Source: Girardia tigrina (taxonomy: Eukaryota). Taken from it: a stretch of 64,000 bases of DNA. The stretch's first letter is position 1. Each line of letters starts with the position of its first letter. The stretch lies in contig MQRK01213424.1 in the NCBI GenBank assembly GCA_001938485.1, positions 1 to 64,000 of the forward strand, written 5' to 3'. Positions 1 to 51,945 of this stretch are shown here, in pieces. Both the position numbers and the translations under genes were made by a program. The notes below the pieces were generated by a model. It was not told the DNA's origin. It saw only the letters and a program-made list of their open reading frames with translations, and did no database searches.

Positions 1-326
1 GGTGGATTCAATGCAAAAAAGATGCTTTGAAGTTATTAAAACATTGGGATTTCCAACAAAATACTGATTTGCTTTAATTCTCATCATCATTTTCTGTAAT
101 GCTGTTTAATTAAATATATCTTTGTTCGTGTCCGATTATTTCTGAACTGTGTAAAAAATTAATATGGCTTGATTTTATAAAAAAATTTTTAAATGATTTC
201 ATTTTTTTTATGAAAGATATCAAACTGTTAAGCTACACATTTTGGCAAAATTTCATTAATATATTTAATACCATTCAAGAGATATAGCCAATTTTCACTT
301 CGTCCGGTTATTTTTGAGCGCTACTG
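1..326 (+). mobile_element. 3' end of a Tc1-like transposon (transposase C-terminus + right TIR)
   Basis: Bases 2-67 read VDSMQKRCFEVIKTLGFPTKY*, a typical Tc1 C-terminus. The element ends ...CGTCCGGTTATTTTTGAGCGCTACTG|TA at 326, with an inner TIR-like repeat at ~129-150. Confidence 0.8.
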
Positions 327-327
327 T

Positions 328-837
328 ATGTATGATTCAAATTTAACTACCCGAATTAAAAGACAATGCCATGGTGGTGGTGTCATGGTCTGGTTGATGA
401 CCATGCCAAATGGTCTCATGGCATTCAAAGTATTAGAAGGCATCTTTAATTCTAAAAAATATATAGAATTGCTTAAAGAAATGATAATTCCGATAATGAA
501 ACTTAATTATGGAAGTGACTTCTGCTTTCAAGAAGATAACAGCAGTGTTCACAAGAGTAAGGTCGTCCAAAGATTCTTGAAAGAAAGCAATATTTCAGTA
601 CTTGATTGGCCGGCGAAAAGTCCCGATTTCAACATCGTTGAAGACTGTTGGAAAGCAATATCAGATTTGGTGTATGATGGAAAATAGTTTAATAAGAAAG
701 ATGAATTAATTAAAAAAATAAAGGAGGTAATTGATGACTTAAATACCAAAAGCAGAGACAAAGTGAAAAATCTATATCAGTCAATAAAACCCCGTTTGTG
801 CAAGGTATTGAAAGTTAGAGGAAATTTGTACAATTAA
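328..837 (+). pseudogene. Tc1-like DD34E transposase, catalytic C-terminal fragment
   Basis: GGGVMVW...FQEDNSSVH...WPAKSPDFNIVEDCW motifs. There is a premature TAG at 685-687 and the frame continues to ...SIKPRLCKVLKVRGNLYN* at 837. The 5' part is cut off by the preceding Tc1 inserted at TA 327-328. Confidence 0.85.
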
Positions 838-1061: not shown

Positions 1062-3756
1062 CGCTCAGTATATACTACACCGTTTAGATGGATCTACTAT
1101 TTTCTCGACAATAGACTTACACAAAGCCTACCACCAAATCCCGGTAGCAAACGAGGATATTCAGAAAACCGCTATAACGACCCCCTTCGGGTTGTATGAG
1201 TACCTTTTATGCCTTTCGGTTTAAGGAACGCCGCCCAAACGTTCCAAAGACATATCGACACGGTACTTTCCGGGTTGCACTTCGCTACTGCGTACATAGA
1301 GGATATACTCATCGCCTCCGCTAACGAACGTGAACACCTAGACCACCTAAAGACCCTCTTCCAACGCTTACACAATAACAACCTCCTCTTAAATTGGGAG
1401 AAGTGTACCATCGCCTCTAGCCAAGTCAAATTCCTGGGTCATCTCATCTCCGATCAAGGACATACTCCCTTACCAGAGCGCGTTCAAGTGATCAAAAACA
1501 TTCCACTGCCAACAACTGTAACGGAGTTAAGGAGTTTCTTAGGCACGGTAAACTTCTGTCACCGCTACATTCCGCACTGTTCGGCACTAACTTTTCAGTT
1601 GTCTGCTCTTTGCGCGGGACCCAAGCGTTCGAAAAACACGTGGACTGCGGAACTCCAGGCCGACTTCCAGAAATTGAAACACAAGCTGGAGAATTTGAGG
1701 ACCTTATCATATCCAAAGAAAGGGGCTGAATTATATCTTTCCACCGATGCTTCATCAACAGCGGCCGGAGCGGTTCTACATCAATTAGTTAACGACGCGC
1801 ACCAACCGATAGAATTTTTCTCAATCAAATTCAATGCCGCAGAGCAGAGGTATTCANNNNNNNNNNNNNNNNNNNNNNNNNNNNNNNNNNNNNNNNNNNN
1901 NNNNNNNNNNNNNNNNNNNNNNNNNNNNNNNNNNNNNNNNNNNNNNNNNNNNNNNTTGGTCAACATCATGGGAATGAAAGACCCATCTCCGCGGCAACAG
2001 CGCCAAATATCTTTCTTATCGGAATTCAACATGTCCATAGTCTACTTACCAGGCGAGGAGAACCCGGTAGCAGATTTTTTATTTCGATCAGTCAACAACA
2101 TCTATTTTCCACCAGTCTTCACGAAAGAGAGATTATCGTCTTTCCCCATCACTCAAGAAGACTTATCGTATTTCAAGGAGACAGTTTCTACTAACGGAAT
2201 AACGTACGATACCAGTTTATCAGGCACTTTGCGTCCCATCCTATCAAAAGACCTTCGAAAAGAAGCGTTTAACCGCATACATTACCTTCATCATCCCGGC
2301 AGCACTAAAACCTACAAGATACTGAAATCTCGCGTAATCTGGCCACACATGCGGCAAGACGTAAAAACTTGGACATCTCAATGTACCCTCTGTCAAAGGA
2401 ACAAAACCATCAGGAAAGTCACACCACCAATCACTCATTACCCGACCACGTCGCGCTTCGAGACCGTCCACATCGACCTGGTAGGCCCCTTACCGAGTGA
2501 TCGCGGCTTCGAGTATGTGTTCACCATGTTAGACCGTTCTTCGAGATGGCAAGAAGCCGTGCCCGTAAAGAACCTGTGCAGCGAAACAATTTGTCGGATT
2601 TTCCTGTCCACTTGGATTTGTCATTTCGGGGCGCCCAGATATGTGATTACGGATCAGGGCAGACAGTTCGAGTCAGGAGTTTTCAAGACTATGATTGATA
2701 AGTTGAGCGCAAAGCACGTGCACACATCCGCGTATCACCCTCAGGCCAACGGGGCAATAGAGCGGTTCCACCGCACCTTTAAAACTTCCCTCAAGATCCT
2801 CGCTGACAAGAACGCTCGTTGGGTGGACGCAGTTCCCTATGTTCTTTTGGGGTGGCGCAATACTCCTAACACCGCCACAGACGCTTCACCAACCCAAATT
2901 ATCTACGGAACATCAATCCGTTTTCTGTCCGAACTTACCGATTGTAACGTCACCCCGTCCGACACTGATATCGCCGCCGCAAGAAAGCTATTCGAAAGCC
3001 TGCCCAAGGACAAGTTTTACCAGATGCCTAACCACGCAAAAACTTTCCTCCGAGAGAGTTTGTACAAAACTACATTCCTCTGGCTCAAAGACCACACATC
3101 TAATGGGTTGAAACCACCTTACACCGGACCTTACAAAATCATTGAACTTTACCCCAGCAACACGAAAATCCTCAAGGACGGTAAAACTATCACAGTCCAC
3201 CTCAATAACACCAAGCCCGCCTTCGTTGTGGACGACACCCCCATCCCGGAAAGCGATAACAGAACCAATTTCCTCTCTGACATGCTCGAGATGACCGTCA
3301 CCGAAAAACCACTCATTACCACTCCAACTCCTTTCAAAGGAGCCAGCGGAAGCACTGCAACTAATTTTACAACACCGCACGCCGAAGACAACAGTAACCA
3401 AATATCACCTGATGACATCGTCGTTACTAACCAGGGCAACTCTCGAATTAGACCTGCCAGATTCTCCAGTTGGGTACCCGTGCAAACCCCAACGGGCATC
3501 ACTAGACTCCGCAGGGTTGAACAATAACCTTCCGCGTTTCCTTTCAGGCGTGTTTCGTGTCTTTCGTTCGGGGGAGTTGTGTTGTGTGCCACCACATTTC
3601 GTTGTTTTTTATTGTTTGTTGTACAGGAGAATTTGGAAATCTTGTAGTTGTGTTTGCGTTGTGTTTATGTTCATTTTTTTATGTGTTTCGTTGTGTGTGA
3701 GTGCTGTTTCCTGTCCTGTTTTTGTGGATCGAAGTAATTTTAGATTGGGTGTGTAA
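1062..3756 (+). mobile_element. 5'-truncated Ty3/Gypsy LTR retrotransposon (RT-RNaseH-integrase, PPT, start of 3' LTR)
   Basis: [13 protein letters not shown]...TPFGLYE, then a frameshift near 1205 into ORF 1209-3527: [12 protein letters not shown] (degenerate YxDD), RNase H TDAS, integrase HHCC zinc finger, D-D-E core and GPY. PPT GGGGGAG at 3570-3576 is followed by TG at 3578. Confidence 0.92.
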
Positions 3757-4544: not shown

Positions 4545-6313
4545 CATAATAATAATTATAGTGTATGTAGTTTTAATAATAATAATAATTATAAAGAAAT
4601 AATACCCAATAGGGGGAATTTTAATGATAATATAGTTAAAGAGCGCGCGATAGTTAAATTTGAAATTTGTTCGAGTGAGAAACTAGACTATTTGGAGTTT
4701 AATGGAAGACCCAGTATTAAAGCTAGGATGGACGGAATAGAGATGAATTGTTTATTGGACGCTGGTGCTCGTATTAATGTACTGGACAAGAAAATTGCTG
4801 AAAAATTACAGGTTAGAATAAATAGGAATGTTATATCGTCAGTTGTGTGTGCCAATGGAAGTGGAATGGAAATACTAGGTACATGTAATATTATAATACT
4901 ATGGAGAAATAAGAAAGTGAACCAGTTATTTTATGTTTCAGAAACAGTGTTCCCATCAATTATTTTCGGAATAACCTTGATAAGAGCTATCGGATTGGAA
5001 TTTAGAGGTGATAAATGGAAATGATAAAAAATATAATTGAAACCGATAGAGAAGTATGCACTCTAAATCAGTACATAGATAAGTTGAAATATACAGATGA
5101 AATGAGAATTTTAAATGCTAAAGAAAAATTAAATTTAAATGAGGATAGTAAACTATACACATGTATTAAAAAATTTTAAAATATTGTTATGGCTGGAGGA
5201 TGGGACATTGGTAAGACATCATTAGTAAAACATCAAATTAAAACATCAGGGCAACCAATTCTACAGAAACCGCGTAGACATCCAACTCATTTAAAAAGTC
5301 ATATAGATGATGTTTTTCGTAATTTGGAACGACACGGGATAATAGAGAAATGCTAATCACTATGGAACACACAGATGGTGTGTGTTTGGAAAAAAGAAAA
5401 GAAGGAAATTCGTTTATGTTTGGATTTCAGGTTGTTGAATCAAGTGACAGAGAGGCCGGCGTTTCCTATACCAAACATCGAGGAAATGTTAGATTCATTA
5501 AGAGGAATGAAATGGTTCAGTTCCATTGACCTGGAAAATACCTACTATCAAATAGAATTAGAAGATTCTTCAAAGTTGAAAATAGCATTTTCAACTAAAA
5601 TGGGACAGTATTGCTTCACAAGAATGCCGTTTGGCATTGCAGCTGCACCAGCAACATTTCAGAAGCTTATGATGTATGTTTTGAAAGAGATGTTGTGGAA
5701 AGAAACCCTGGTCTATCTTGACATTTTGATTTTTTCGAAAACCGAAATGGAGCTCATGGAAAGGTTGGAAAAACTATTTGCACGAATAGAAATGGCTGGA
5801 CTGAGAATAAATCCTGAAAAATGTAGATTCTTTCAAAAAGAACTACGATTTTTATGGCATATAGTGAACAGAGACGGATTTAAGACTGATCCAGACAAAA
5901 TAAAATCGATAGTGGAATTCGAACAACCAAAATGTATAAAGAAATTGCGAAGTTTCTTGGGACTATGTAATTATTATAGAAAGTTTATACAAAATTATTC
6001 AAAACTATCAAAACTATTGGAAGAAATGTGTGGAAGTTCGAAAGACATGGTGCATTGGTCAGATTCCCACTCAGTGGCTTTCAAAAAACTAAAAAAAGCA
6101 CTAATATCGGCCCCAATATTTTGTTATCCTGATTTTGGGAAAGAATTTATATTAGACACCGATGCTTCTTTTGATACGATAGGAGCAGAGTTATCCCAAA
6201 GGAATGAGAAAGGTTAAGAACAGGTGATTGTATACGGATCTAAGTCAATGACAAAGCATGAGATTGGATATTGCATTAACAAAAAAGAGCTTTTAGCAAT
6301 TTTTCCTTTCACG

Positions 6314-11870: not shown

Positions 11871-13149
11871 TATTATGAATGACTTTGACTGATATTTCTG
11901 GATATTTGTTATGTTGAATAAATTTATTAGAAATTAAGGTGATTTTCTTTCGTTATTTTATTACTTTGGTTGTGACATTGATAGTTCATTGACGGTTAAG
12001 TATTGTTTTATTTTCTTAATTTCTGTTTTTACCTATTTTCTTATCAGTAAGAATAGTTATTCGTTTTTTCACAGCGAATAATTATTTTTACAACTATCAT
12101 ATTTTTACTCTACATTGTAATTGTTAATTTATTTCTTTTAAATTTTCAAATTTAAAAAATAACAAACTATTTTGGCGAAACTTAAAACTAACCCCTCATA
12201 CAAATAGTAAAGAATTCTGTGAAATAATGAAACAAATAGATGAAGGAAATGGGACAAAATTTAAGCAAAGCGATAGATGGAAGAAACAAACAGATGCGAA
12301 GGCGACAGAAAAAAAGATGTATAAGAACTTTTGATAACAAGATTTGGATTCAGAAGGAAACAAGGAACGATTGCATTTTATTTTTCCATAAATTTCTGTG
12401 TTATGTTGGAGTGGATAAAACGTACACATTCATGAGAGAAGAATATGACATGGATGAGTTTAGTAAAAACGTTGAAAGAATAGTACGAGCATATGCAGTG
12501 TGTCAAACATCCAAAACTTATACGGGAAAAACAAAAGAAACCATAATGAACTTAATTTCAAAACGACCATTTGACGATATTATTTATTGTGGATATATGC
12601 CAGTCATAAATGGAAAAAAATATATTTTGGGTATAATAGAGAGATTTAGTAGGTATGTTAGTCTCACAGCCGTAAATAACCAAGACGAGATGACAACAAT
12701 ACAGACCATACAACGCCAATGGATATTTAGGGTTGGAGCTCCAGCATGTATCCACGTAGACCATGGAAAAGTATTCGAATCGAGGGCATTTATGGAATTT
12801 GCAAAATCTTGATTGATTAAGATAAACTTCTGAAGTCCATACCATCATAGTTCGAATGGAATAATATAGAGACAATTTCGAACAGTTCAAGATTCATTAA
12901 ATGCGAATTTAAAAGAGAGAGGAAGTAAAAATTGGATAGTTACTTCAAAAATAGAATTTAGTACGAATGCATCGAGACAAAGCACTATTGGATATAGTCC
13001 TACGGAAGTAATTCTGGGAAAACGGTTAACCCTTGACGGTTCACGACATTGTGAATTGGACAACAAGAAGATAATTGACGAAGTTAAAATGTCAAAGATG
13101 AGCGAAACTAATGTAACCATAACAAAACGGGATTTCCCGGACAGAATAG

Positions 13150-13650
13150 CATGAATCGTCGATTCGTTCTTTTCCAACTTCTTTAGGGAAAGTCTTTTTT
13201 CAACAGTCAAATCATTTTCTTTATCATTAAGAACTTTGACAAATGAATTCTCAAAATCAGGTGAATGGACAATTTTAGCATCCGATCCAAGATATTGTTT
13301 CATGGCTGGATTTGTAATGATAACCCGATCAAAGCAATTTCTTGCATCTAATAAAGTCAATGAAGGGCTCTGCAGATAAACAGTTAACTGGTTCAATAAA
13401 TTTAGCTCGTTCATTACAGTTTTAATTTGCAATATTTGGATACAATATGGCATAAATAAGGCCAAATCGGGATAAATGATATCAAGATACTCCTGAATTT
13501 CAAAGAATCTTTCCAGCATATTGAAAAAACTTCATCAGCGTGTCAAAATTTTCGAAATGGGTCGTAACGGTGTTCGTAGTATGAATTTTGCTATTTTCAA
13601 AGGCGTTGACAAAGCGTCAACCACATCCTTTACTCGTAAATAAAGATGGA
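13150..13650 (-). pseudogene. hAT-like transposase fragment
   Basis: Degenerate TRWSS region followed by MLERF...TVYLQSPSLTLLDARNCFDRVIITNPAMKQYLGSDAKIVHSPDFENSFVKV. The ORF tail below 13150 is antisense Gypsy integrase. Confidence 0.65.
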
Positions 13651-15054
13651 ATTGTCAAATAAACTGGTTAAAGGATTCGGCTGTTGTTACCAATAGTTGA
13701 GGATCCTTGACTTTGGGCATAATTTTATGATCGTTAAGTGAAGTAATCGAAATGATTTATTGTGGCACCAAGACAATTAAATACAACGATCTAAAAAACA
13801 AGATAAATATCAATAAATTACTTTCTGACAGCAACACCAAACAATCGCATAAAATGAATATTTAAACAAATGAAAATTTAAAACAAACATACCCCAGGAA
13901 TCACTTCTAGATTTTTGCTGAGATGATATCTTTTTAGTCATTTTTACTTCACTTTTGAATGTGAAATCATCGTTCAATCATCTCTACACATCTTTTTATA
14001 ACTGGTATAATAAGCTGTGAATAAACTATATTAAATGAAATGCATCGATTAAACTACGATCTCTGACCAAAATCTTAATCATTTGTTTGATTTCAGCCGC
14101 TGAAAAAACCAAAAGATGACACAGTAGAATTTTCTTTAACCAAGTAGTAGTCACACATCAAATTTTCTCAAACCGAACAATGAGTGATTCGCTTTTAGTT
14201 TGTTGTGCATTTCTTCCCTTCCACATGTCATACACCGGCCCATCTTACATCATAATTAATATCGGGGCCCCTTTATCCTCTAAATTATCAACCTCAAGGT
14301 TTAACTCAAATTTAGCGATCTAACACTCGACATTCATTGAACCACTGAATTTCTTTAGATTCTTAATTGTTTTCATAGCCACTACAGTTTATTACAAATT
14401 GATAATAAGACTCTCAAGAGATTTATTGGCATCTAAATATTTATTTTATTTAAAGAAACATAATACCAATTATTTAAATATAATTACAACATATTACTGC
14501 ATCATTTCATAAAATTTTTACACGTTACAATATTTTATCCTATTAGCATTTAATTAGTATGGATTATCTTTACATATTAAGTTACATACAATAACTAAGT
14601 TTAAGTTAAAAAGTTGTTTAGAGCAAAGCAATTATGTTTCTGCATCAGCCATTATAAACAGCTATAATTAATATCATTATTTCGTTTCAAAACCCAGTAA
14701 AAGATTTATAACTTGAATTACCCTGCAAATTGACCGTTACATTAAAACAAAAGTTCAATTTAAAAGCCAGAAAACTTATTTATCTATAAAAATATTTTAA
14801 CATTAAAAACAGACTAAAAATTGCATGTTAAATACAAATTGTCTAATTGTAATAAAATTTTAAAAATAAAATCGATTTTATTCAAAATTTATTTACTTAA
14901 AAAAATTATATTCCGTTAAAAAATTCTTATTAAAAATATATATATATATATATTAATACAAATTATTTTCAAAAATATTATTAATATATTTAATACAATT
15001 TCTTATCAAATATTTGTTAATTTCTTTTAATCGGTCGGGTTCCATTATTTCGTC

Positions 15055-15557
15055 ATGAGTGTCAAAGTGCATGTAGTATACTGGTAAGTGAGTTATTGAA
15101 CTCTGTTCTCATCACTTTCAATGTAATCATATCGATTTAAAACTTGTATTTTATTTCAGTGGTGCCTGAGGATACGATATCAAGGTAATCGCGTCTCCAT
15201 GGCAACCATTATTGATTTTTAATATTAATATTCAGTTTCAGAGCCTGAAAAAGGATTTGGAGCTTGAATTTCCCGGCAAATTGACCATTGTATTAAAACG
15301 ATTTTAAATATGAAAAAATATTAAATAATCGATTTCTATTTAAAATAGACTTCGTTTGCGACACCTAATGTGACCGGTTGGTTGGAGGTCGAGGTCAACG
15401 GTGTTCTGATACATTCGAAAAAAGTTTTTTATTGAATCTATAAGAAAAAAGTTTTCATCAAAATTTATTTGTTAATTTTTAGAATGGCGACGGATATGTC
15501 GATAATGAAAAGAAATTGCAGAAGATTTTCGATGCAATTAGTAAAGAACTGAATTAA
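15055..15557 (+). CDS. SELENOW: Selenoprotein W (Rdx family), 85 aa, Sec encoded by TGA 15167-15169
   Basis: Exons 15055-15083, 15160-15184, 15236-15289, 15349-15423 and 15483-15557, all with GT-AG introns. Protein MSVKVHVVYCGAUGYDIKFQSLKKDLELEFPGKLTITSFATPNVTGWLEVEVNGVLIHSKKNGDGYVDNEKKLQKIFDAISKELN has the YCGAUGY, TGxxEVxVNGxLIHSKK and GDGYVD motifs. Confidence 0.96.
15193..15206. promoter_or_regulatory. X-box (RFX-type site) in SelW intron 2
   Basis: GTCTCCATGGCAAC matches the X-box consensus GTNNCC-AT-RGNAAC and sits in a 51-nt AT-rich intron. Confidence 0.45.
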
Positions 15558-15606
15558 ATATTTAAATAATAATTAGAAAATTTAGTTTATTTTTTGTAAT
15601 AAAAAA

Positions 15607-15671
15607 ACCAAAACGATGATGGTTATTGATTAAAATCGTCTCGATTTTCAATGACTTGATGATTATTTGGC
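15607..15671 (+). promoter_or_regulatory. SECIS element (type II) in the SelW 3' UTR
   Basis: Helix I CCAAA/UUUGG; core AUGAU (15616-15620) opposite UGAU (15657-15660); helix II GGUUAUUGA/UCAAUGACU; unpaired AA; apical mini-stem AUCG-UCU-CGAU. AATAAA follows at 15685. Confidence 0.92.
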
Positions 15672-18354
15672 TTTAGGTTTAATGAATAAATTTGTTTCAT
15701 TAGAATTTGTCTTTTTGAATTTGAATTACGATCTTTTTTGATAAATACGAGATTCAAAAATTGTATAAAAAGTGACCATATAAAATTTATTTTGCATTTA
15801 AATATAAATATTTAATGACTTTGTACATTGTATTAATATAACTGAAACTTTATTTTACAATGTAATCATTGTATGTGTCGTTTGTGATTCATAGATAGGG
15901 CTGCCCTCTTTAAACAGTATATGTAATCTTTTTGAGCTGTTAACAATACTTTATTTCATGTTGGCTCTTCAATTTTGGACTTACAAGTGTCATTCTTTTG
16001 ATAAATTTGCCTCAAATTTTTATGATTTGTAGAACTGTATTGTTTATTGAATTCCTATTTTGAATTAGTGATCCTATCATACTGAAATGCATATTATCTT
16101 ATACAAAGTTATTTAAAATTTATATTTTATGCTGCTTGTTTTCATTTTCTGTGATTTTTTCGAAAATATTCTTAAAATTAATTGTGGTACTCCTCATACA
16201 TCATCAGCTACTATAAGTTTTAATTTACAAAATAGAATGAATACCAGGTAGGTTGAAAAAATCATTATACTTTATAGAGATATTTTGGGTTAAATGGTAA
16301 ATTTTTATTTAATTAAAGGATTCAAGTGGATTTTGAATGTTAATTAATGTGTTGTAGTGTCGGTTTGTTAATGATTATGAAAACTGCTATTATGTAAATC
16401 AAAACCTTTTTTTGAATATTAAAAAAACTCATCTTTAGATTCAGAAGGAATTATATTTTTACATGACAGCTAGTCAAGAACCTAACTCAATTCAGGTTTT
16501 GAGATGAAAATCTTTATCTACAATGTTGGGCCAACGTCAACGATGAGGATTACTGGTTAGCAGCTTCGACTCTATCGAGTGAAACTTTTTGGTCAGATAC
16601 TGATTATGCTATGGATAATATTTTCTTATTATTAAAAATCATTTAATTAGTTTTTTTTTGTCTCGGAAAATAAAGTCTCAGTTTTATTTTTTTTAAACTT
16701 AAATTTTTAATAGAATTTTAAAATTTTTAAAATAAATTTAAAAAAATAAACGATTCCGGTAAAATTTAGAAAAAATTAAAATAAAATTTAGAAATAAATG
16801 AAAAATTTGAGTAAATTTTAGAAAATTTAGATTTTTGGTTTATTGTATGTTTTTACTATATCATCATTAGGTGATAATTTTTTTAATTTGGTATTTTAAT
16901 AAATGATTATTTAATATTACGTGGCCCCCAGAGACTTCCAAAAAATATTATTTTAGTCTATGTGTACATTATTAAAATGTTATCTTTTTTCATAAAATTC
17001 GTATTCATGTACCATTTCAATTTGGATTTTGTTATAAAAGGCAATGAAATAAACTGTCGAAGACAAATGAATTATATTTTCGCAAAAATATTCGAATTTC
17101 CCATTGTCCGCACTTTTCCGTTTATTAAAACAACTGTTTAATTGTCAGTCATTTTCCTCATCACAGATTTAATTATTAATTTTGGCATTATTTAATAATA
17201 AAATAAGTAATTGAAAGTGGTCTTTTAATTTAATAGTAATTACAATTCTTAGGTTTTTAGCGGAATTTTCAAATGAAGAAGCGTACATCTGAGTATTGTA
17301 AAATCGATGTTTTTTTTCAAAAAATAAAAGCAATCAATTAAGGAAGAACCAGTGAACTCATCGAAACAATTGATAGCACTTCAATCTCAAATTTTATATT
17401 TTCTTGCACCAGTGACTCTGTCAGAGAAGTAGAAACTTTATATTCACAACTTGATATTGGTAATGCCTGCTGTTGGGGTGAACTTTAAATTTTTGATATT
17501 TTTTTAAAAATCATATTTATATTTTAGATAAATTAAAAATAATGTTCGACTAATTAAAATGAAATAATCTTTAAATAAAAATTTAAGTTTACAGATAATA
17601 TTTTTTTCTTATTAAAATAAATAAGATTTTATAAAATATATTTTATAGGTATCATTTCTACCAATTAAATTGAAATAATTTTTGTAAAAATTATATTTCA
17701 CAGATAGTATATTACTAATTAAAATGAAATAAGTTTTGTAAAATTTTAGAATAATGATAATATTTTAATTAAATTGAGACAAATTTTTATAAAAATTAAG
17801 TTTTAGAAATTCACAATTGGAGTGTCATTTTCGAAGTTAAAGGATATTGTAAAGAAGATTTCGATATATTTTGTATTTAAAATCATAATGTTTGTTGAAT
17901 TTAATTGTCGTTAAAAGTTTTAATTCGGTTTTTTAATTTTTAAAAAACAAAATATTTTTGTCCAAAAAACTTAATGATTTAATTTTTTAAAGAAAGTTGT
18001 TGAAATGTTTTAAATCGTAATATGGAAATTTTATTCTCAAATAAAAATAAATTAGGTTATAGAATTTATAAATTTTCTTTTCATAATACCTTTTTAATCA
18101 AGATTAAGTAAAATAAATTTTAAAAACTAAAAGTAATATTACTTATCAGAAAATAAACTTTAAAAAGAATGCAATTTTTATTAAAACCAAATAAAGGGTT
18201 TTATTAAAAAATAATTTATCATCGAATGATTAAAAATCAAAAATATTTAAGAATTGAATTTTTAAAATATTTTAATAAAGATCTAAATTTATAAACCTTG
18301 AAAAAAAGTAATAAAACAGAAACAAAATAAGATTTATGCAAAATTGAAGAAAAT

Positions 18355-21611: not shown

Positions 21612-24600
21612 TCAGTTGACTGCGATAATAATTACAAGAATTAAGGCAACCAGCGCTGCAACAACTGCGTGAAGACCGAGCATGAAATACTTGAACATTC
21701 GACCCTAGATCATTGACGTGATAATTGAACATAAATTATAATGCTTTCATTTAACTTACAGATTGCTTTGGTGGTATCGGCGCGGTTTGAGGAGCGTGAT
21801 TTGTCAACAGAGCCGCTTGATATTCTCCCAGTTCCATTTCATAAGTATGTCTTTTGTCTGATTAATACAATCAATTTCATCCGTTCAATAATTGTGAGAT
21901 TATTCAAAATTATAGATTTTTATTTAATAAAATAACTGTTTTAGTCATAATTCAACAGTATCTATTCTGATATATTTTCCACGTCTTTATCTAATTGAGT
22001 ATGTTAAAAACCTCAAATTATGTATTTTGATAAAATTGTGAAAACATAGATGAAATAAGTTTCATCAAGTAAAAGTAGAAGAGAAGAACTCAAATGTGAG
22101 GCAAAGCAATTAGTCAGTTTTTGCAAGTAAATTTTAAATAAATCTTTTTACTATTATCAAAAATCTGAAATGACTTGGTTTCGAAAATACTGAATTTGGA
22201 TATTAAAGAGATTTATTTAATGATTAGACAGACACGAACTTATGAGTATTAAAACCCAGTGACTCCAAAAAAAAATTCGAAACACAAAAACATGCATTGA
22301 AACTGTGAGGATTTTGGGAAACTCTTAAAGTTTTGAATTAGAGTTAACAAAACATTTAAAATAATTGTTATAGTATAAAAGTAAAAAATAGAAATTTATT
22401 TTAAAATAAGCACAGACGGTAAAATGTAGTACAAAGTTACAATATCAATAATATTAAAAATAAATGTTTTAGATAAAATTTAAAGTAATAAAATTAGTAA
22501 ATTAAATAGTTTTGAAAACGAATTAAATATAAAATCTTAAGAATAGTTAAACAGAATTTAATAAATTTTAATAAAGCAAATACGATATAAAGAAAAATAA
22601 ATATTTAAAATTAACGAAGTTTAATAAAATGCCATTTAAAAGAAAATACAATATTTAAAAAAATACAAAATTAATACATAAAATATTTGAAAAGCGCTTA
22701 TTTTTATAATTTAATTAGTTTTAAATTAAAAAAGTTTTATAAAATGAAGTACAAGTACAGAATTTCGTAAATAATAAATTTACATATATTTACAATTATT
22801 TTGATATTATTGGCTTCTGCAAAAAAATGAAAAATCATTCCTCAGAAATTTACTTAGGTAAAACTTGTTCAAATAATATTTACATCGCTGTTATTAAATA
22901 AAAATTTCAAAAAATGACTTTATCTGAATTCTTATCAGAATATATTCCCGAATCTAACATAACGATAATAGCTAGTGTAAAGGACATGCTCATTCTTAAA
23001 ATTTTTGAAATAATTAAGTTTTATAAATAATTTCTAAAATAAGGAAATATTAATTATAACTAAAAAATATCTTTAATTAATTTTAAAAGTTATTCTGAAA
23101 AATAAATTAATGAAATTTTTGTTGCCAGAGATGTAATTTTAAAAACAGATAATTTTAAAGTCAATTTGAAATTCTGCCAATTAAAAAGTAGATTTAAAAA
23201 ATATTTATAAAAATCCGCCATTAAAATTTTTAGAATTAATGAATCGTAATAAAATAATTAAAAATTTTAAATATTGTGAATTAATTTTTGTATTTAAATT
23301 ATATAAATACTAAAGGACTTTTAATTAAAAAATTGAGCTAAAACATTAAAATAAGTTTAAAATATCTTTTGTAAAGTTTATTAGACATGTAAAAGAAATG
23401 AAACGAATAACTAGTTAAAATAATTTTAGGTAATAAAATATTATTTAAATCGGAATATTTATAATAAATAAAACGTTAAACTCTTTTTTGTTAATTTAGT
23501 TACAATATATTTTGTTGATTTTATATTTTAACGGATAACGCCAATTAGTATCACCAACCCATATAGTATCACGACCCAAATAATATCACCAATTAAAAAA
23601 AAAATTTTAGTGATACTATTTAAATAGTATCACGGCCCTATTAGTATTACTATTTAAGTTTTTAAAAATCGCTTGAAAAAAAATCATTAATTTTTAGTTG
23701 TAGTAATGAAATCAACTGGTTTAGTTCAATGAGAGTAACAGCACTGATTTCTATTTGGGCAGATGGTAGGAAGGCAAAGCCTTTGGTAATCCATAAAGGA
23801 AAGAATAGAAGTCCTATTTGTAAACAAAATCGTATCTTGCATACTACTCAATCAAAATCCTGGGTTAACCAAGAATTAATTATAAAGTGGATCGAACATA
23901 TGTTTCCTTTGATTGATTTAAGCAACGGTAAGTGTATTATTTGTGATTTGTGTCGAGTTCATTTAGGCCTACAAGTAAAAGAACATTGTATTAAGAGAAA
24001 TGTTGAAATGATCGTGATCCCAGGGGATTGACACCTTATCTACAAGCAGGAGATATAAGAATTTTTCATTCCTTGAAAGATTTGATATTTTCGTATTAAT
24101 GAATGGAAGATCTCTGATTCTGTTGTTTATACCAAAAATGGTAATCCAAAACCATTGGAAGTACTTTAAAATTACTTTTGTTGGGGCCAAGTATTAACGT
24201 TCGGGCCCATAAGAACGCGCCGCAAAATTCCAGCACACAATCTCCAATTTTGGTCCTTAAGAGGACCGTATTTCTTTCGCAATTATTTGAATCATTTGAG
24301 GAACCACCGATGAAATAATCTGGTTGAAACAATTTCCCAAGATTCGAATTCATTATGTAGTTGAGAGTGGTACTGTTCAATTCAACCATGACGCTGATCG
24401 GCACACACTTTCCATGAATTTCAGAAACAAAGTAAACGTAAATTATACGTAATTGCAAATCACTGTCACTTTCGTAAATACCAGTGGTCGATTTGCCAAT
24501 GTGTTCGATGATGGTTATTTTACAAAACGTCGTTCCAATACTGTTTCCACAACTTTGAAATATTCTCATTAATTCATACCATTGATCATGAATGTCTTCA

Positions 24601-25167
24601 CAATTTTTAATAGGTTCTGAATTTTCGTCAGTTTCTTTGATATGTAATCTCCGATCGGGAATTCTTACATGATTATCTTCAAATGTCTTCATAAAATAAT
24701 CCGCATTAAAAATATATTCAAATGGAAAATTCATCTCATCTCTAAACATAATTTATGTTGAATCGAATATATTTATTACTATAATTAAAAATCGATATTT
24801 CTATATATCTTTTATTTTTATCAAATTGTAATTATAATTAATACATTATAACAAATAACATTATTAATCAGATTTTCATTTCCATTTTTTTACATTTTTC
24901 TCTTTTCTTAATTAACAAAAGTAATTTTAAGTAAATTCTTTTTTTCTTTCTTTTTTAACCGTAATAAATATATATACAGTAGATACCGCTTAAAGAGAAT
25001 ATTTTTGGGACTTGAAAAAATATTCTCTATAACCGATATTTCTCTTTAACAGATACTTTTTTATAAGGATAATTTTTAAAAAAATANNNNNNNNNNNNNN
25101 NNNNNNNNNNNNNNNNNNNNNNNNNNNNNNNNNNNNNNNNNNNNNNNNNNNNNNNNNNNNNNNNNNN

Positions 25168-25211
<44 letters not shown>

Positions 25212-28200
25212 CATTGGAATTGGAATTAAATTCCAATTCCAAATTTTATTTTTCTTTTTATTTCCATCTTGAACAACCACCATCGAAGGAATTGATTAAT
25301 TCATGGGTCGGAGAATGTTTGAATGAATTGAAAACCGAAACCATACAAAACTCAATAATATCATCATGATTTAGTTCGAACCCTGACGATTGGCATATAG
25401 CAAAGCATGATGTGTATGGTAGAAAGTTTTGTGAGGCTTTGGCTGTTTCAAACCAGATTGAATAATTTCCCTACGAGTCTGTTTCCGGGGAAGATGTAGA
25501 TGGCCAGGATGTAGACTGTTTAGATGATAATGATGATGTAGAATGTTTGGATGTCGTTAATGAATAAAGTATTAGTGATATTTGTTTTCTTTTTTAATTC
25601 ATATTTTGATATTTTTGTTAATGGGAATTGAAAGCACCAAAGAGTATCACGACCCAAATAGTATCACTAACTTAAAAAAAATTTAGTGATACTATTTAAA
25701 TAGTATCAGTCATACTATTTGGCGATATACGTTATTTCAAATTAAATTTTATCAAATAGTAGAATGTTAATCTATAAAATTAATGGAAAAAAATTTCAAT
25801 TTTTAAAATATCGTTTTTAATTAATAGCTTATCAGTATTTATAATTCCATATTTTTATGTATAAGAAATCTGGTCAAAAGAAAACGAAAGAAAAGTTCCT
25901 CGGCGAAAAATTTGTTTAAATAATTGTTATTTGTATTATAAATAAATTTTTTTGGTGTTAATGAATTATAATCTTGATCAAGAACCCAAAAGCTAGAAAT
26001 TCAGATCAGCTGATACAGCGATTACTACCGGAGCGATACAGAAAACAAGACAAACGTTTAACTTACCATGATTTTATTTAGTACGAAACATGTCATGAAT
26101 ATTTAAAATGATAATTTGATCAATAAATTAAAAAATATTTTACAAGTTAAGTGATTATTTTTCATTTATTTGAGTAGATAAATCAAATTTAAAAGTAATA
26201 TACTATATTTTATATTTTATTTTAATATATAAAACAGATTACCTTTATTCCTGCGATAATATAAGCATCCATGAACTTCAAGAATGATCTCAACGGCAAA
26301 TTGGAATAAAACAAAGAAAATAAGAATCCATTGAGGATAGTCTAATTGTGACAACTGTAAGCCGGCTGCAGGAAGTCTCATTCCTATCATTATTGTAGGC
26401 ACTGAGAGACAATAAGCAATCGTTCCGATAAAGAAATGAAACCAATTAAACCATGGTCGATCTTTGGAACTAGGAGCACACCGACAAAGAGCAATTAAAG
26501 GCTAAATATTAAATAATATTTTCTTGTAAAAATCGTGGTAGGATATTTAATCCTAGATGGATATTTAAAACATCCTATGGACAAATATCATATGTATTGT
26601 ACTTTGATAACCATTAAATTATTGATATATATTTTAAGTATTTCTCGAATATGATGAGCATTAATTTCTTTTGTGTGTATAGTTTGATGGGTATGATAAT
26701 GCTAATACATACATACGTGGTGTGTTAGATAAGTCCTTAGACTCGCGTATAAATAGAGTTATGACAAAAATGACATTGTTCCCAAAAATAGTTATACTAT
26801 TTGTGGCTTCATATTTGCCATGAGTTTATATACGCTCTTAAAGTTGTGAATAGGACAGAGGGAATTTAATAATTTATGCGCGTCATGGCACCGATCGTTG
26901 AATACACAAGTGTCATCAAATTACTTGTGCTTAAAGGCACAGTTAGCCAAGATATTATCGAGCAGCTGCAGGACATCAACAAAGACGATGTTCCATCTGC
27001 AGCAACAATTTACAATTGGATTCGTGAATTCTCTTGACCAAAATTTCTTCAAAATGGCATTCGTCGAACTTCTTCACGACTGGAAGAAGTGCGTGTTTGA
27101 AAAAGGCTCATATATTGAGAAATGAGTGTTCACTTGTTTGTGTTTAAACAGTAAAATCTCAATGAAATCTGACCTTTATTTCGTGTCGAGTCTAAGGACT
27201 TATCTAAAGCATTACATATTACATTTTATATTAACAATTTTCATATAATCTTTTTAATGAAGATAATTTCAAATCGAAAAAAAGATTTAACTAGTTATTC
27301 AAGAGTTATTTCTTTTATTAACCTAATATAAAAAAGATATTTTGCAAGTTTACAATTTCCATGTTCAGTCAACAAATGGGGTACACATTTTGTCATTAAT
27401 TGTTCTTCTTCAATCCAAATCATAATGTCAATTGTTCCAAGAAGACAACCAAGAAAACTCCTAAATTCCCCATATGCTTCAATGAATGCATTGAAAATTA
27501 ACTTTTCTCAGTGTAACTTTAGAGATTTTTTTTCAATTATCCTCAATAATTTACGAAAGGTTAATCAGTTGGGTATGAAACGCGAAAATGAAACAAATAA
27601 GGAAGATTTTGTAGTACATGTAAAGCTGTTGTGAGCTCTCGCACCTTTGACAGTGAATGAGGTTGTTGATGCATTTTTGGAATTTAGAGTAACTTTATGA
27701 TCTTTATAAATATTTAATTGCGGTCTACAAAAAAACTGGAAAGTGGTCCATAAGAAAAGAAAGCTTGGGAATCATTAGTCTATATTTTAATATGTCCATA
27801 GGATGTTATATCTAGGATAAAACGTCCTGTAACTGCAAAAAATATTCAAATCGATTCTTACATTGAGAAAAGCTAAAATAAAAACAATAATTCCCAAAAT
27901 AGGATGAGCTTTAAACGGCAATGAATCAAGTTGTGAATAACCACCGACGTGAATGAAGATAAGAATAAATGAAATTGTGGTGAGAACAACACATGTTCCC
28001 TGAAGTGAACGGTGGAACTGAAACCAAACCATCTCTTTGGCGATTCCCGTATAAGGCCACATTTCTTTATAGTATCGGGCGAGAATGATTCCCACTGAGC
28101 TACAGAATACCCAGGCAATGACCATCAATATTCCGTGTGATTTCGCCAATGAAGAATTCATCGGAGATGACCCACTAACCACATTAAATGATCCTCTAAA

Positions 28201-29262
28201 ATGTTAATACATGATATTATCACAAATATCAGAAGAGCATGATAAAAAATATAAAATTTCATTTGTCCAAAATACAATTAAAGATGGATACGAAAGATCC
28301 ATGATTGGTGTCATCATTGTCAAGAGTCAAGAATTGTTTACCAATCAATGATTCAGACATATCACATTCGACTGATGCGATTTTATCAACGTAAACATCG
28401 TATAAATCTGCAAATTTGTCAGTGATTAATCAAGTGTTATTATTTGATAAAAATAGTCATATCACTCTACATTCTCTTTTCTTACACTTTTATTATAACA
28501 ATCTTTTATGTCTATGATTTTCTTTTTTCATTAAATATATTACGAATTTAAAAATTTATAAAATAAAGCTCAGGTTTCCTGTAACTTTTGGTGAACTATA
28601 GCAATCTGAGCACATCCCACGATTCCTCGTGAAGTCCACCAAACTGTCAACATAATCTTTCTCTGGGGAATATATTTCTTCCAACATGTTCCTAGAGCTA
28701 CCTGCGTTCAATTCAGTGCATTCTAGAATTGTCACAGGTTACCTACTTTTCACCACAGGTATAAATTGGATCAATAAATAAATTACTGGCTACTCGGACT
28801 AGTAAACTTGCAGTTGATGAAACTAGTCATTTTGTTGTTCTCACACATGTATGGATGTCATTGGTCAAGCTTTAGCGTAAAACAATAGCATGTGATCCTT
28901 GATCCACGTGTCACATTTTAATACTTTCCCGATTTCTTCACAAATAACACATGGATTTTAATCCCAACACTTACAAATGTCCTCATCTTGCCAATAAACT
29001 CCCAGATCGTGATTCATTTCCAAGTCTTTTTTTCCAGACTTAAAGAGACGAAAGCAAAATGTGCTACTTAATCTGCTAAGGTTTTCTTTAATTTTTAAAA
29101 GTTATTAGGGTATTAGTGTTTAACACTTACATCCAGAAATATAAGATCGACATTATTTATAAAACTAAAATGTTTAATACTTCATTTAGTTATATGTGGT
29201 CGAATGTTTTTTTAGTTGTTCATCTGTTATACATCTGTATTTTTACCTGTATGATAATAACA

Positions 29263-29300
<38 letters not shown>

Positions 29301-29347
29301 TATATATATATATAATATAATATTCATAATATATATAATATTCATAA

Positions 29348-29398
<51 letters not shown>

Positions 29399-32300
29399 GC
29401 TATGATAAATTATTAAAAGTACTAAAAGATCGATGATATTAGATTGATAATCATATTAATTAGTACTTATTATAGTATAAATTATAGAAAATAATTATGG
29501 ACGCCTTCCAGAAATCACAGTTGAAGAATATATATTAAAGTAAAGAAATTAGTCCCTCCGCAACAAAACAGAAGAAAGAGGAGATATAAATCCTTTATCA
29601 CATTTTAGTCTTGTTTCATCCTCTTCCTAATCACAAAAATAGTAGTGAATATTAACGGTAGATTATGTATCATTTGTTGGTTGACTGTTTACTACTCACT
29701 ACTTGTATTTTCCTTTTTATTATAATTATAATTATTTTTTCCATTCTTTTTATTAGCTTACTTTCTATATAGGTATATATGTATGTATGTATCCATGGAA
29801 TTTAGAAACCTGTTTTTGAAGGCTTTTTACTCAATCGATTTTCTTCAAAATTTGCACACTTACTCATTCTCGATAACAATAAATGATTATGTGAAATTTT
29901 GATCGAAAAAACTTTTTAAGGTCTCAAAATAGGAAAAACGGATAATTCTGAGTTCCCAAACAATATTAATTGCAATATATCTACTTATAAATTATCAGTA
30001 GTTAATATTAATTTTTAATGTGATTTTTTAATTAAAATTTCAAAAACTTTGTTGGCAAAGTAGAGTTCTGTCTGCATAAAGAATGGATAAAAATTTAATT
30101 TTTTGATTTACTAGTTTCTGTTAAAGTTGTTTAAGTTTGATTAAACTAAAATTAGTGAGTCATAACTCCAATTTATACTCACTATTATAATTATAATGGA
30201 ATATTATATTACCCTCTTTTACAATTGACTTCATTTATAATACAGAGACATAAAATGCATTTATCACAAATTTCGTTGTGACGAGTGACTCGTCAAAAGA
30301 AGGAAGAAGTTAGACTGACAATGGAACCGGATACTTCACCGAAATTTATTACAAAAATATATTTTGAAAAAACCGTTCAAAATTTTTGAACTAAAATTAT
30401 TTCCAGTATTTTATAAGGAAAATAATCTGGAAATTCAATCTTATTTTTTTTATTTTTCTTTTTGTCATGAAAATTTCGCTCGAACTAAAAACTAAAGGTT
30501 TCTGACTATTCCAATAGAAGGAGAATCCTCGGGAAATAATATTTAAATATTCTCAATTTAAAGATTTAAACATTTCCAAATCTAAGGTCCACTAATGATT
30601 TATCTTTTCCAGTGGTTAGAAGCATCTCCTGAACTAATATCGATTGCAAAAAAAAGTTTCTAGATTTTTTTTCAAAGATAGAAGTCATTTTGGGGAATAA
30701 ATTTAAATCGTCTCATTAAATATCTCATTTAAGTCACATATTAAACACTTTTCCCGAAAATAAATCGACCCTTTCCAAACCTTTGGTTCAAATTATTTTG
30801 CTTTTTTTACAAATATTTTTAGTTTACTTATTGTTATCTGTCTTGATCGATTTTCTAGTTTATTTCAATCATCTCTATCGTTTCCTTTTGTTTTGTACAA
30901 AATATTTTCTGACAATTCTTTTGTTAATAAATGTAAGACTTACACGAATTTCATTGTGTCTTTCATTACCAAATTTTTGCACACCAAATAACAATTATTT
31001 TTATATATTTACTTTTCCATGTAGAATTTTAGATTCACTGTGCTTATTGATTTATTTGTTGTTTTTTCATAAATATAATAATTATAATAAATCTTCAAAG
31101 AAGAATTTTACGATTAAGATTAAAGTATTAAATTCTAATAACCTTGAAAAGTCTACAGGTACGTCACTGAAGATCAAACTGCCCGCCGAAGGTCTACCCA
31201 GACCATATTGAGATGCTTCAATACCTCTTGCTGTGATTAAAAAGTATTCATTTCCAGACGATAAGTCTTTCAGCTGGATAGATGCTTGTTGGGGTCGAGT
31301 CCGACGCAAAAATCGGCACATTAACCGTTTTGTTAGAGTATTGAAAAAGCCTCCGTATCGATTGTTCTTGGGCATAAGTACAATGCTCTAAATCAATACA
31401 AATCAAATCAACTTGTACATTCGATATCAGAAGATTACATAAAGAAACAAAATAAATATTACATCAATTATGGCCAAAATAAACAGATTAAGAATGTCAT
31501 AAATTATTTAGATAAGAACTAATTCATATTTTTTCAAAGAAAAATTAAACCGAAAATTTAAACAAATAAGAATAAATAAATGAAATAAATTCTGAAATCA
31601 AAATATAAATAAATATAATAAATCTTGTTAAAATATCACACAGTGAAAATGAACTCTTGTTCCATTCGGTCACTGTTACACCTCCAAAGAGTGTTCGCTT
31701 GGTTTTGAGTGAGTATCAACCGATAGTAAATCATTAATATTTGGTTTCATTATTGATTTTGAGTGAGAAAATTCATGAGTGTTTTCTGTAATCAATCTGT
31801 ATTCAGTCTATGGCAAAGTATTTCAGTGACAATTTCAAAAATTTTAATTATTTTAATTATTACTCGTCTGATCAGTAACAATAAATCATAAAATCCATTA
31901 TTTTCTACGACATGATTCTGGATTTTTTATTCAGTAATCCAAAAATGCCTATGACATTTATGGTCATCTGGATTTGATCTTTCTCTATTTGCTGTTTAAA
32001 AATAGTGTCTTTATAATAATATCAATATGTTTTTCCCTCAGTCCAAAATAGAAATGTACCCATAATTTCACTTAAAATAAATACCAGATGAATTCAGCAA
32101 TTCGTAAATATAAGAAAAATAAAACAAAACTTATTTATTTTGGAATTAAATTGAAACGTAAAATTTCATTCCTAATCTGAAGTAGATTGGAGCAAATATT
32201 ACTTGCATTTGAGATGCTTTTATTCTATCGAATAAATAGATGCTCCAACAACACACCAAACAACACACAATAAACACCATTCAAAAATATTCCTCACAAT

Positions 32301-32482
32301 AGTTATTATGAAGAACAAACTACAAGTAATACTTAAAATGAAACTTAAAAATACTTAAAATACATAAATGGTAACTTTAACTCCACCTCTTAGTTTGACC
32401 TTTACGTCCTGTAAATGAAAGTGGAATGATTGCTATCGAATATTTGATACAAGAGCAAGTATAGTCTTTTATGCCTTTGCAT

Positions 32483-32541
<59 letters not shown>

Positions 32542-51270: not shown

Positions 51271-51945
51271 ATGGAAGCATTCTTGTTATAGATGAGAAGT
51301 GGCTTTATTCCATCCCTATGCCAGCAAATGAAAATCATCGTACATGGGTAGACCCTAGTGGTGATGGGCAACCACAACCTAGGGGTATCATTATCGATAA
51401 AAATTTTCATATAATTGTGGCAATAAATTTTTGTGGTGACAATTATTTTGAGATCCTAGACTACGGCATAACAGTCAATACACATGTACATATTCGTTTC
51501 CTAGAAAATGTGGTCCAAATTTACTGACAGGGTACTTTGACGATTATGCACGATAATGCCAGTCCACAGTCAGTGAAATTGACAGAAACTTTTATGGAAC
51601 AAAATCCCATTCTGCGAATTCAACGGCCCTCCTGTTCTCTTGATATAAATTTGATAGATCTTTTCATATTTAGGAACATGGAAACGTTAAGAAGACAGCA
51701 AACATTCAATACTACTGAGCAAGTGAAACGTTTTTTGGAAGAGTTCTTTGGTAGACAAACCCGTTATAAACTAACTTGTGAGATCAACAAATTGCGAGAG
51801 AACCTAGGAAAAATTATATCATCTGGTGATGACTATTTATAATTAAATATGATTTCATAAAAGTTTTAATTTCTACTAGGCTTTTTGAATCTTTTGCAAA
51901 AAAAATTACGATGTAAGAAAAAACGCCGCTTTTCGGGTCCCTCTA
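51271..51945 (+). pseudogene. mariner-like (DD34D) transposase catalytic half
   Basis: VIDEKWLY...IMHDNASPQ...RPSCSLDINLIDLFIF...GDDYL*; internal TGA at 51525. Confidence 0.75.

What the first reader, a model, noticed from the sequence alone, without database searches (positions are those of the whole stretch)
15055..15690. Hidden 5-exon selenoprotein W with UGA recoding and a textbook type II SECIS
Seen: five micro-exons (29/25/54/75/75 nt) splice into an 85-aa protein with YCGA-TGA-GY. About 60 nt after the stop, a hairpin has the AUGA/GA core, a 9-bp helix II, unpaired AA and an apical mini-stem. Known: SelW/Rdx proteins carry CxxU, and a SECIS directs Sec insertion at UGA. Inference: this is a complete, functional selenoprotein locus that ORF finders miss and that standard annotation would truncate at codon 13. 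It implies Sec machinery in this genome.
Basis: partly seen in the sequence, partly recalled or inferred. Interest (0 to 1): 0.75.

Follow-up and report, generated by a model that had tools for sequence, protein, structure and literature searches.

The report
Ordinary flatworm selenoprotein W gene
This is a real, intact-looking gene for selenoprotein W, a small selenium-containing redox protein, in a flatworm genome; it is built like the mammalian gene and belongs to a family already reported in flatworms, so it is ordinary.

Summary
Five exons (29/25/54/75/75 nt, four GT..AG introns) splice to an 85-residue frame whose only internal stop is a TGA at codon 13, in a C-G-A-U motif. Exons 4 and 5 each have solved selenoprotein W (PDB 2NPB) as best match, at the same residue numbers. 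A type II SECIS begins 58 nt after the stop. It is the only 9/9 helix-II pattern among 211 pattern starts in the window, but it scores 30.9 bits on Rfam SECIS_1, below the cut-off of 35, and its A-run is mostly paired in the computed fold. A neighbouring gene places the host among flatworms, outside the parasitic Neodermata. The planarian Schmidtea mediterranea is reported to have six Sec-containing SelW genes, SPS2 and tRNA-Sec (PMC3828610, PMC2770079), and short exons are typical of SelW (PMC2958745). Expression, Sec insertion and this genome's Sec machinery were not tested. Verdict: correctly read, an expected SelW1-type gene, low interest.

The parts
15055..15083 (+). Coding exon 1 (29 nt): start ATG, residues 1-9 and the first two bases of the Cys10 codon
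   Evidence: an in-frame stop lies 9 codons upstream and there is no AG between 14812 and the ATG; mammalian SelW also takes 9 residues from exon 1 (PMC3316567)
15084..15159 (+). Intron 1 (76 nt, phase 2, GT..AG, consensus-type donor)
15160..15184 (+). Coding exon 2 (25 nt): completes Cys10 and carries the Sec codon
15167..15169 (+). In-frame TGA, codon 13, the U of CxxU (predicted selenocysteine)
   Evidence: Sec reading is inferred from motif position plus SECIS
15185..15235 (+). Intron 2 (51 nt, phase 0). In frame and stop-free: retention would add 17 residues
   Evidence: no transcript evidence for retention
15236..15289 (+). Coding exon 3 (54 nt, residues 19-36)
   Evidence: 4 of 10 residues equal 2NPB residues 19-28 as printed (compared by eye); no database hit of its own
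15290..15348 (+). Intron 3 (59 nt, phase 0)
15349..15423 (+). Coding exon 4 (75 nt, residues 37-61), best-conserved part of the Rdx domain
   Evidence: TIGR02174 E 6.5e-5; PF10262 E 0.026; 2NPB 40-61 E 0.0046, 14 of 22 identical, the only PDB hit at E<=10
15424..15482 (+). Intron 4 (59 nt, phase 0, weak U-rich donor)
   Evidence: boundaries fixed by contiguous 2NPB register 61/63
15483..15557 (+). Coding part of exon 5 (75 nt, residues 62-85 and TAA)
   Evidence: 2NPB 63-82 is best of 9 PDB hits, E 0.061, 11 of 20 identical
15598..15603 (+). AATAAA hexamer 18 nt before the SECIS AUGA (probably chance; if used, it would cut the SECIS)
   Evidence: chance of at least one in 58 nt about 0.22 at local density
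15608..15670 (+). Type II SECIS: helix I 15608-15612/15666-15670; A15616; quartet 15617-15620/15657-15660; helix II 15621-15629/15648-15656; A-run 15632-15635; helix III 15635-15638/15642-15645
   Evidence: Rfam SECIS_1 30.9 bits, full model 1-64
15685..15690 (+). AATAAA downstream of the SECIS, likely the polyadenylation signal
   Evidence: U-rich sequence follows; use inferred
14668..14765 (+). Decayed partial tandem copy of the gene (end of intron 2, exon 3, start of intron 3), with an in-frame TAA and no AG at the exon-3 acceptor
   Evidence: 77% over 81 nt at spacing 551; block score 80 against a shuffle maximum of 37 in 200; translation

Best explanation
An intact nuclear SelW1-type (SELENOW-like) selenoprotein gene of a flatworm outside Neodermata, probably a planarian. 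Shown in sequence: five coding exons, CxxU with UGA at codon 13, and a type II SECIS in the last exon, 277 nt after the UGA in the spliced message. Inferred from the known eukaryotic pathway (recalled): the four introns are removed, SBP2 binds the SECIS quartet, and eEFSec delivers Sec-tRNA so that UGA13 is read as Sec. The product is an 85-residue, probably cytosolic thioredoxin-like (Rdx) protein. Cys10 and Sec13 cycle between a reduced form and a selenenylsulfide and act on oxidised cysteines of partner proteins; mammalian SELENOW binds 14-3-3 through Sec and competes with thioredoxin 1. When selenium is short, UGA13 would terminate and the message would probably be lost to nonsense-mediated decay, since the UGA lies 144 nt before the last junction. 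Likelihood: gene identity about 0.97; Sec inserted in vivo about 0.92; thiol-oxidoreductase role with 14-3-3-type partners about 0.55.
For: Exon structure, frame and single TGA. Exon 4 hits TIGR02174 SelT/SelW/SelH, PF10262 Rdx and 2NPB; exon 5's best PDB hit is 2NPB. Spliced residues 40-61 and 63-82 fall on 2NPB 40-61 and 63-82 with no gap or offset (25 of 42 identical), which checks the summed length of exons 1-3. Of 5,683 open GT..AG parses, 38 hold both blocks and 3 are in 2NPB register. SECIS; it fits UGAN/KGAW, the 5' A, G at position 1 and helix 3 (PMC2647825). UGA-to-SECIS distance 277 nt exceeds the 51-111 nt minimum (PMC3316567). Host: the neighbouring DOMON/cytochrome b561 gene groups with 10 neodermatans (100/100) but outside them (92/89). 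Lineage has SelW, SPS2, tRNA-Sec and SECIS-bearing reductases (PMC3828610, PMC2770079, PMC2873472). Mechanism: PMC8508763 abstract; PMC13437758 passages.
Against: The SECIS is below the Rfam gathering score (30.9 < 35), and its A-run is mostly paired in the computed ensemble. Each exon on its own scores below the curated family cut-off (TIGR02174 23.1 < 34.2; PF10262 15.1 < 22.6). Exons 1-3 gave no database hit, so their support is motif position and register only. The whole protein was not scored against a profile or folded. No transcript data; no Sec-machinery gene or tRNA-Sec in the window. An AATAAA precedes the SECIS. The protein has one cysteine only, so the glutathionylation control described for mammalian SELENOW (PMC13437758) cannot apply. 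The host call rests on one neighbouring gene.
Confidence: 0.9

Rival explanations
1. The gene is transcribed, but most messages do not yield a selenoprotein: they are cleaved at the proximal AATAAA (cutting the SECIS), spliced around the UGA, or carry a weak SECIS whose A-run is sequestered.
For: AATAAA at 15598; both apical adenines free in only 6% of samples; Rfam score under cut-off; 32 of 38 block-holding parses avoid the TGA.
Against: AATAAA occurs 4.3 times per kb locally, so the chance of one here is about 0.22. A second AATAAA lies just past the SECIS. The TGA-free parses lose CxxU and most use poorer donors. Helices I, II and III are near-certain in the quartet-constrained ensemble. 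Energy models do not score the non-standard pairs or bound proteins (recalled).
Confidence: 0.05
2. A pseudogene in which the TGA is a nonsense mutation and the hairpin is leftover or chance.
For: The locus has duplicated and left a dead partial copy 551 nt upstream; the region is rich in transposon debris; no expression data.
Against: The only internal stop is exactly at the Sec position. There is no frameshift, all 8 splice sites are canonical, and helix II is fully paired. Exons are 32-48% GC against 14-31% in introns. The upstream copy shows what decay looks like here: a TAA and a lost acceptor.
Confidence: 0.03
3. An Rdx-family selenoprotein of another subfamily (SelW2/Rdx12, SelV, SelT or SelH) rather than SelW1.
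For: TIGR02174 and PF10262 cover all these subfamilies; S. mediterranea has three SelW2 genes as well as three SelW1 (PMC3828610); no tree of the protein could be built.
Against: 2NPB is the only PDB hit of exon 4 and the best of exon 5, with zero offset. Length 85, 9 residues from exon 1 and five coding exons match SelW (PMC3316567). There is no long exon 1 as in SelV, and no C-terminal CaaX box as in SelW2/Rdx12 (feature recalled).
Confidence: 0.04

Closest known systems
Mammalian selenoprotein W (SELENOW/SelW1; solved structure PDB 2NPB, mouse by recall)
   Same: CxxU at residues 10-13 (mammalian numbering recalled); residues 40-61 and 63-82 colinear with 2NPB, 25 of 42 identical; five coding exons and 9 residues from exon 1 (PMC3316567, section read); very short exons that searches miss (PMC2958745).
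   Different: The SECIS lies in exon 5, 58 nt after the stop, with no room for a 3'-UTR intron, whereas mammals carry it in a sixth exon. Introns are only 51-76 nt. There is no second cysteine, so no glutathionylation site.
Schmidtea mediterranea Sm.SelW1_a, _b, _c (PMC3828610)
   Same: Same family and subfamily in the same broad lineage; multiple copies there, and a decayed tandem copy here.
   Different: Sequences could not be compared (figures not held, no supplement readable), so it is open whether this is one of those three genes or an orthologue in another flatworm.
Rdx family (Pfam PF10262; NCBIfam TIGR02174 SelT/SelW/SelH)
   Same: N-terminal CxxU; exon 4 matches model positions 37-57 of 74.
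   Different: No difference found; single exons score under the curated cut-offs and the whole protein was not scored.
Eukaryotic type II SECIS (Rfam RF00031 SECIS_1; consensus of PMC2647825)
   Same: UGAU/UGAU quartet, 5' A, G-U first pair, helices I, II and III, A-run 12 nt after AUGA; the full model is matched.
   Different: 30.9 bits against a cut-off of 35; the A-run faces three U's and can pair with them.

Membership tests
Rdx family / selenoprotein W (SelW1) | CxxU motif near the N-terminus, U encoded by in-frame TGA | tested here: met
   Cys10-Gly-Ala-TGA13, the only internal stop
Rdx family / selenoprotein W (SelW1) | Sequence similarity to the family model and to SelW | tested here: met
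   Exon 4: TIGR02174 E 6.5e-5, 2NPB E 0.0046; exon 5: 2NPB best hit, E 0.061
Rdx family / selenoprotein W (SelW1) | Whole-protein score above the curated cut-off (PF10262 22.6, TIGR02174 34.2) | not tested
   Only single genomic stretches were scanned; exon 4 alone gives 15.1 and 23.1 bits
Rdx family / selenoprotein W (SelW1) | Small single domain of about 85-90 residues; five coding exons, 9 residues from exon 1 | tested here: met
   85 residues, five coding exons, junctions after codons 9 2/3, 18, 36 and 61; PMC3316567 section 8. Exact mammalian positions of introns 2-4 are in a figure that is not held.
Rdx family / selenoprotein W (SelW1) | Thioredoxin-like Rdx fold | not tested
   No model of the whole protein was made; fold inferred from gap-free match to 2NPB
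Rdx family / selenoprotein W (SelW1) | Groups with SelW1 rather than SelW2/Rdx12 in a tree | tested here: inconclusive
   No full-length homologues retrieved; PDB best hits and absence of a CaaX box (feature recalled) favour SelW1
Rdx family / selenoprotein W (SelW1) | Selenium actually incorporated at the UGA | not testable with these tools
   Needs 75Se labelling, mass spectrometry or a reporter
SelV | Long N-terminal extension from exon 1 (228-334 residues) | tested here: not met
   In-frame stop 9 codons before the ATG, no AG in the 240 nt upstream; PMC3316567
Eukaryotic type II SECIS | Quartet UGAN/KGAW with an unpaired A 5' of it | tested here: met
   A15616, UGAU 15617-15620, UGAU 15657-15660
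Eukaryotic type II SECIS | Helix II and an additional helix III at the apex | tested here: met
   9 of 9 pairs; 4-bp mini-stem; marker pairs at probability about 1.0
Eukaryotic type II SECIS | Unpaired run of A's in internal loop 2 | tested here: inconclusive
   The run is present and unpaired in the Rfam alignment but mostly paired in the thermodynamic ensemble
Eukaryotic type II SECIS | Rfam RF00031 gathering score (35 bits) | tested here: not met
   30.9 bits; E 1.9e-4 locally, 0.04 window-wide; the only SECIS_1 match among 4 hits at E<=1. A library threshold rather than a biological requirement.
Eukaryotic type II SECIS | Located in the 3' UTR, beyond the minimum distance from the UGA | tested here: met
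   58 nt after the stop, 277 nt after the UGA; inclusion in the transcript not shown

The most novel reading that the evidence does not exclude
This flatworm SelW1 gene carries its own switch for selenocysteine use: a poly(A) signal 18 nt before the SECIS core would cut off the SECIS, so the choice between two 3' ends would decide between a selenoprotein message and one that stops at codon 13 and decays. An A-run that can pair with facing U's, and an in-frame, stop-free intron 2, could add further control.
Probability: 0.05. Interest if true: 0.4.

Novelty: new member of a known kind. Interest (0 to 1): 0.12.

Why it matters
As an ordinary member it matters for annotation: the gene has no ORF of 100 codons and would be truncated or mis-spliced by standard pipelines, so the coordinates here are a useful curated model. 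If the host is a planarian, the gene is open to RNAi, which could address the still uncertain physiological role of SelW. The search for 'selenoprotein W' with 'planarian' listed 4 papers, none a functional study of planarian SelW by title or opening abstract; that library lacks most subscription papers. It does not extend the known range of selenocysteine use or of SelW. If the genome is S. mediterranea, the gene is probably already catalogued.

Tried and rejected
Full-length homologues: the open frame across exon 2, intron 2 and exon 3 (TGA read as Sec) found no candidate in the 5.8-billion-protein set. In the 1.84-billion set it found 2 long multi-stretch proteins matching mainly the intron-derived residues, treated as chance. 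PDB searches with that frame gave one unrelated hit at E 1.9, and exon 3 with flanks gave none. Exon 5 had no Pfam or NCBIfam hit. Exon 4 had no match in plasmids, and was too short for the prokaryotic genome scan, so no bacterial comparison or home-built profile was obtained. No tree of the SelW protein, no whole-protein profile score and no structure model were made. No Rfam family reaches its cut-off anywhere in the window, and ARAGORN (bacterial-code setting) found no tRNA. The four other Rfam hits over the 3' UTR (E 1.1-9.3) are chance. Remnants of exons 1, 2, 4, 5 or the SECIS in the upstream copy: none above shuffles (56, 193, 168, 184 and 142 of 200 shuffles scored as high). Intron-2 retention as a real isoform: open frame only, about what chance gives over four introns (rough estimate, not computed). 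Bacterial origin or contamination was rejected on the spliceosomal introns and the eukaryotic SECIS. A paper search for 'six exons' with SelW and SECIS gave 0 papers. Two scripts stopped with errors after printing the results used; the local shuffle was redone.
Full report
Observation. Joined, they give 258 nt: 85 residues and a TAA, with a single internal TGA at codon 13 (15167-15169) three residues after Cys10. Exons are 32-48% GC and introns 14-31%. An in-frame stop lies 9 codons before the ATG and no AG occurs in the 240 nt upstream, so there is no nearby upstream exon or N-terminal extension. No ORF of 100 codons overlaps the gene.

Independent check of the splice model. Exons were searched one at a time. 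Exon 4 matches TIGR02174 (SelT/SelW/SelH, E 6.5e-5), PF10262 Rdx (E 0.026) and, as its only PDB hit at E<=10, selenoprotein W 2NPB (E 0.0046, 14 of 22 identical). Exon 5's best of 9 PDB hits is again 2NPB (E 0.061, 11 of 20), though it had no Pfam or NCBIfam hit. In the spliced model these blocks are residues 40-61 and 63-82, the very numbers they match in 2NPB. This fixes intron 4 and checks the summed length of exons 1-3, assuming 2NPB numbering starts at Met1. Residues 19-28 share 4 of 10 with 2NPB 19-28 as printed (by eye). Against this: exons 1-3 gave no database hit of their own, single exons are below the curated cut-offs, and the whole protein was neither profile-scored nor folded.

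The SECIS. AUGA starts at 15616, 58 nt after the stop and 277 nt after the UGA in the spliced message, beyond the 51-111 nt minimum cited in PMC3316567. The quartet is UGAU/UGAU, helix II pairs 9 of 9, an A-run starts 12 nt after AUGA, and a 4-bp helix III closes a 3-nt loop. These fit the type II consensus in PMC2647825. It is the only 9/9 pattern among 211 pattern starts in the window; shuffled windows give 0.067 on average, and 5 of 10,000 local shuffles reach it. The test length was chosen after seeing the finding. Rfam SECIS_1 matches over the full model at 30.9 bits, E 1.9e-4 locally and 0.04 window-wide, the only SECIS_1 among 4 hits at E<=1, but under the gathering score of 35. The unconstrained fold is modest (z -2.07). 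So it is a good SECIS, not a flawless one. AATAAA occurs both before it (15598) and after it (15685); at 4.3 per kb locally, the first has about a 0.22 chance of being accidental.

Host. The window is AT-rich (21-44% GC per 2 kb) and full of transposon debris. The neighbouring DOMON/cytochrome b561 gene is 73-88% identical over its main exons to an unnamed record, P0002 (63% and 53% over two shorter blocks). The 12 best named relatives of P0002 are all trematodes, cestodes or a monogenean, at 45-53%, against 31-39% for molluscs and a nemertean. In a tree of 18 rows (two exon blocks, 195 columns; other unnamed hits and three redundant named flatworm rows left out), the window and P0002 join the 10 neodermatans at 100/100 and lie outside them (92/89). 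The host is therefore a flatworm outside the sampled Neodermata; a planarian is my inference from that position and the base composition. It rests on one gene, and the species was not determined.

What is known. PMC3828610 (parts 1-3 of 5 read: abstract to conclusions; figures not held; no supplement readable) reports 19 selenoprotein genes in S. mediterranea, among them three SelW1, three SelW2 and SPS2, and two SelW in S. japonicum. PMC2770079 (passages) reports tRNA-Sec in S. mediterranea. PMC2873472 (passages) reports its SECIS-bearing TR and TGR. PMC3510090 (passages) reports a UGA- and SECIS-bearing SelW transcript in Echinococcus. PMC3473315 (passages) lists SelW in all six invertebrate genomes it examined. 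PMC3316567 (section 8 and passages) gives mammalian SelW five coding exons, 9 residues from exon 1 and the SECIS in a sixth exon; here the SECIS is in exon 5 with no room for another intron. PMC2958745 (passages) notes that human SelW is missed by genome searches because of very short exons, and that selenoprotein genes are commonly truncated or spliced around the UGA. The 'hidden' character is thus the family norm. Whether this gene is one of Sm.SelW1_a-c could not be tested, because the alignment is in an unseen figure.

How it most likely works. Shown: gene anatomy, motif and SECIS. Inferred from the known pathway (recalled): SBP2 binds the quartet and eEFSec brings Sec-tRNA to UGA13. The product is a thioredoxin-like protein whose Cys10/Sec13 pair cycles through a selenenylsulfide and acts on partner thiols. 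Mammalian SELENOW binds 14-3-3 through its Sec and competes with thioredoxin 1 (PMC8508763, abstract only); whether the flatworm protein does so is untested. It has a single cysteine, so the glutathionylation control reported for the mammalian protein (PMC13437758, passages) cannot apply. The UGA lies 144 nt before the last junction, which would allow nonsense-mediated decay under low selenium, as reported for mammalian SELENOW. No tRNA-Sec or machinery gene was found in the window; that is uninformative for 64 kb.

New detail. A degraded, unprocessed copy of exon 3 and its intron flanks lies 551 nt upstream (14668-14765; 77% over 81 nt; block score 80 against a shuffle maximum of 37 in 200). 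It has an in-frame TAA and no acceptor AG. No other exon or the SECIS is recognisable there. It fits the multiple SelW copies reported in planarians, and it shows that the neighbouring intact gene has been kept while its copy decayed.

Verdict. Real, correctly interpreted and expected: a new member of a known kind, or already catalogued if the genome is S. mediterranea. Confidence 0.9 in an intact Sec-inserting SelW1 gene. The most novel reading left open is a poly(A)-site switch that removes the SECIS (probability about 0.05, interest 0.4). Overall interest 0.12.

Noticed in passing
window 14668-14765 (+): Decayed, unprocessed partial tandem copy of the SelW gene (exon 3 with intron flanks), 551 nt upstream, 77% over 81 nt, with an in-frame TAA and a lost acceptor. 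Fits recurrent SelW duplication; other exons are not recognisable.
   Followed up: yes
window 21615-39519 (-): Multi-exon DOMON + cytochrome b561 gene (FRRS1-like) with introns up to 7.7 kb. It follows a 466-residue homologue from residue 1 and lacks the extra N-terminal PF02014 domain of mollusc and annelid homologues, as do the flatworm hits. Used to place the host.
   Followed up: partly
window 24096-24752 (-): 218-codon open frame inside an intron of that gene, same strand; residues 66-176 match the N-terminal part of beta-tubulin (E 9e-17; Pfam Tubulin E 3.8e-4; atlas hits 0.88 and lower). Divergent and partial: probably a decayed retrocopy.
   Followed up: partly
window 1200-3527, 4545-6217, 12240-12812 (+): LTR-retrotransposon pol pieces (protease, reverse transcriptase, RNase H, integrase domains), from more than one element and broken by stops or assembly gaps.
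   Followed up: no
window 232-687, 23666-24031, 36269-36739, 42424-43161, 57667-58113, 62460-62945: DNA-transposon fragments: DDE_3, DDE_1, hAT dimerisation domain and Mos1-type HTH_48. The frames at 50268-51842 and 55282-55914 look like Tc1/mariner pieces by eye but had no Pfam hit at E<=0.01.
   Followed up: no
window 52451-52887: Long inverted repeat (150-nt arms, 87% complementary, with nested inner arms). It gives two sub-threshold microRNA-family hits; probably a MITE-like foldback element.
   Followed up: partly
window 15185-15235 (+): SelW intron 2 is 51 nt, in frame and stop-free, and 31% GC against 14-15% for introns 3 and 4; retention would give a 102-residue form with CxxU intact.
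   Followed up: partly
window 12887-13531 (-): 214-codon open frame upstream of the gene on the other strand with no clear Pfam match (best E 0.078); looks transposon-derived by eye.
   Followed up: no
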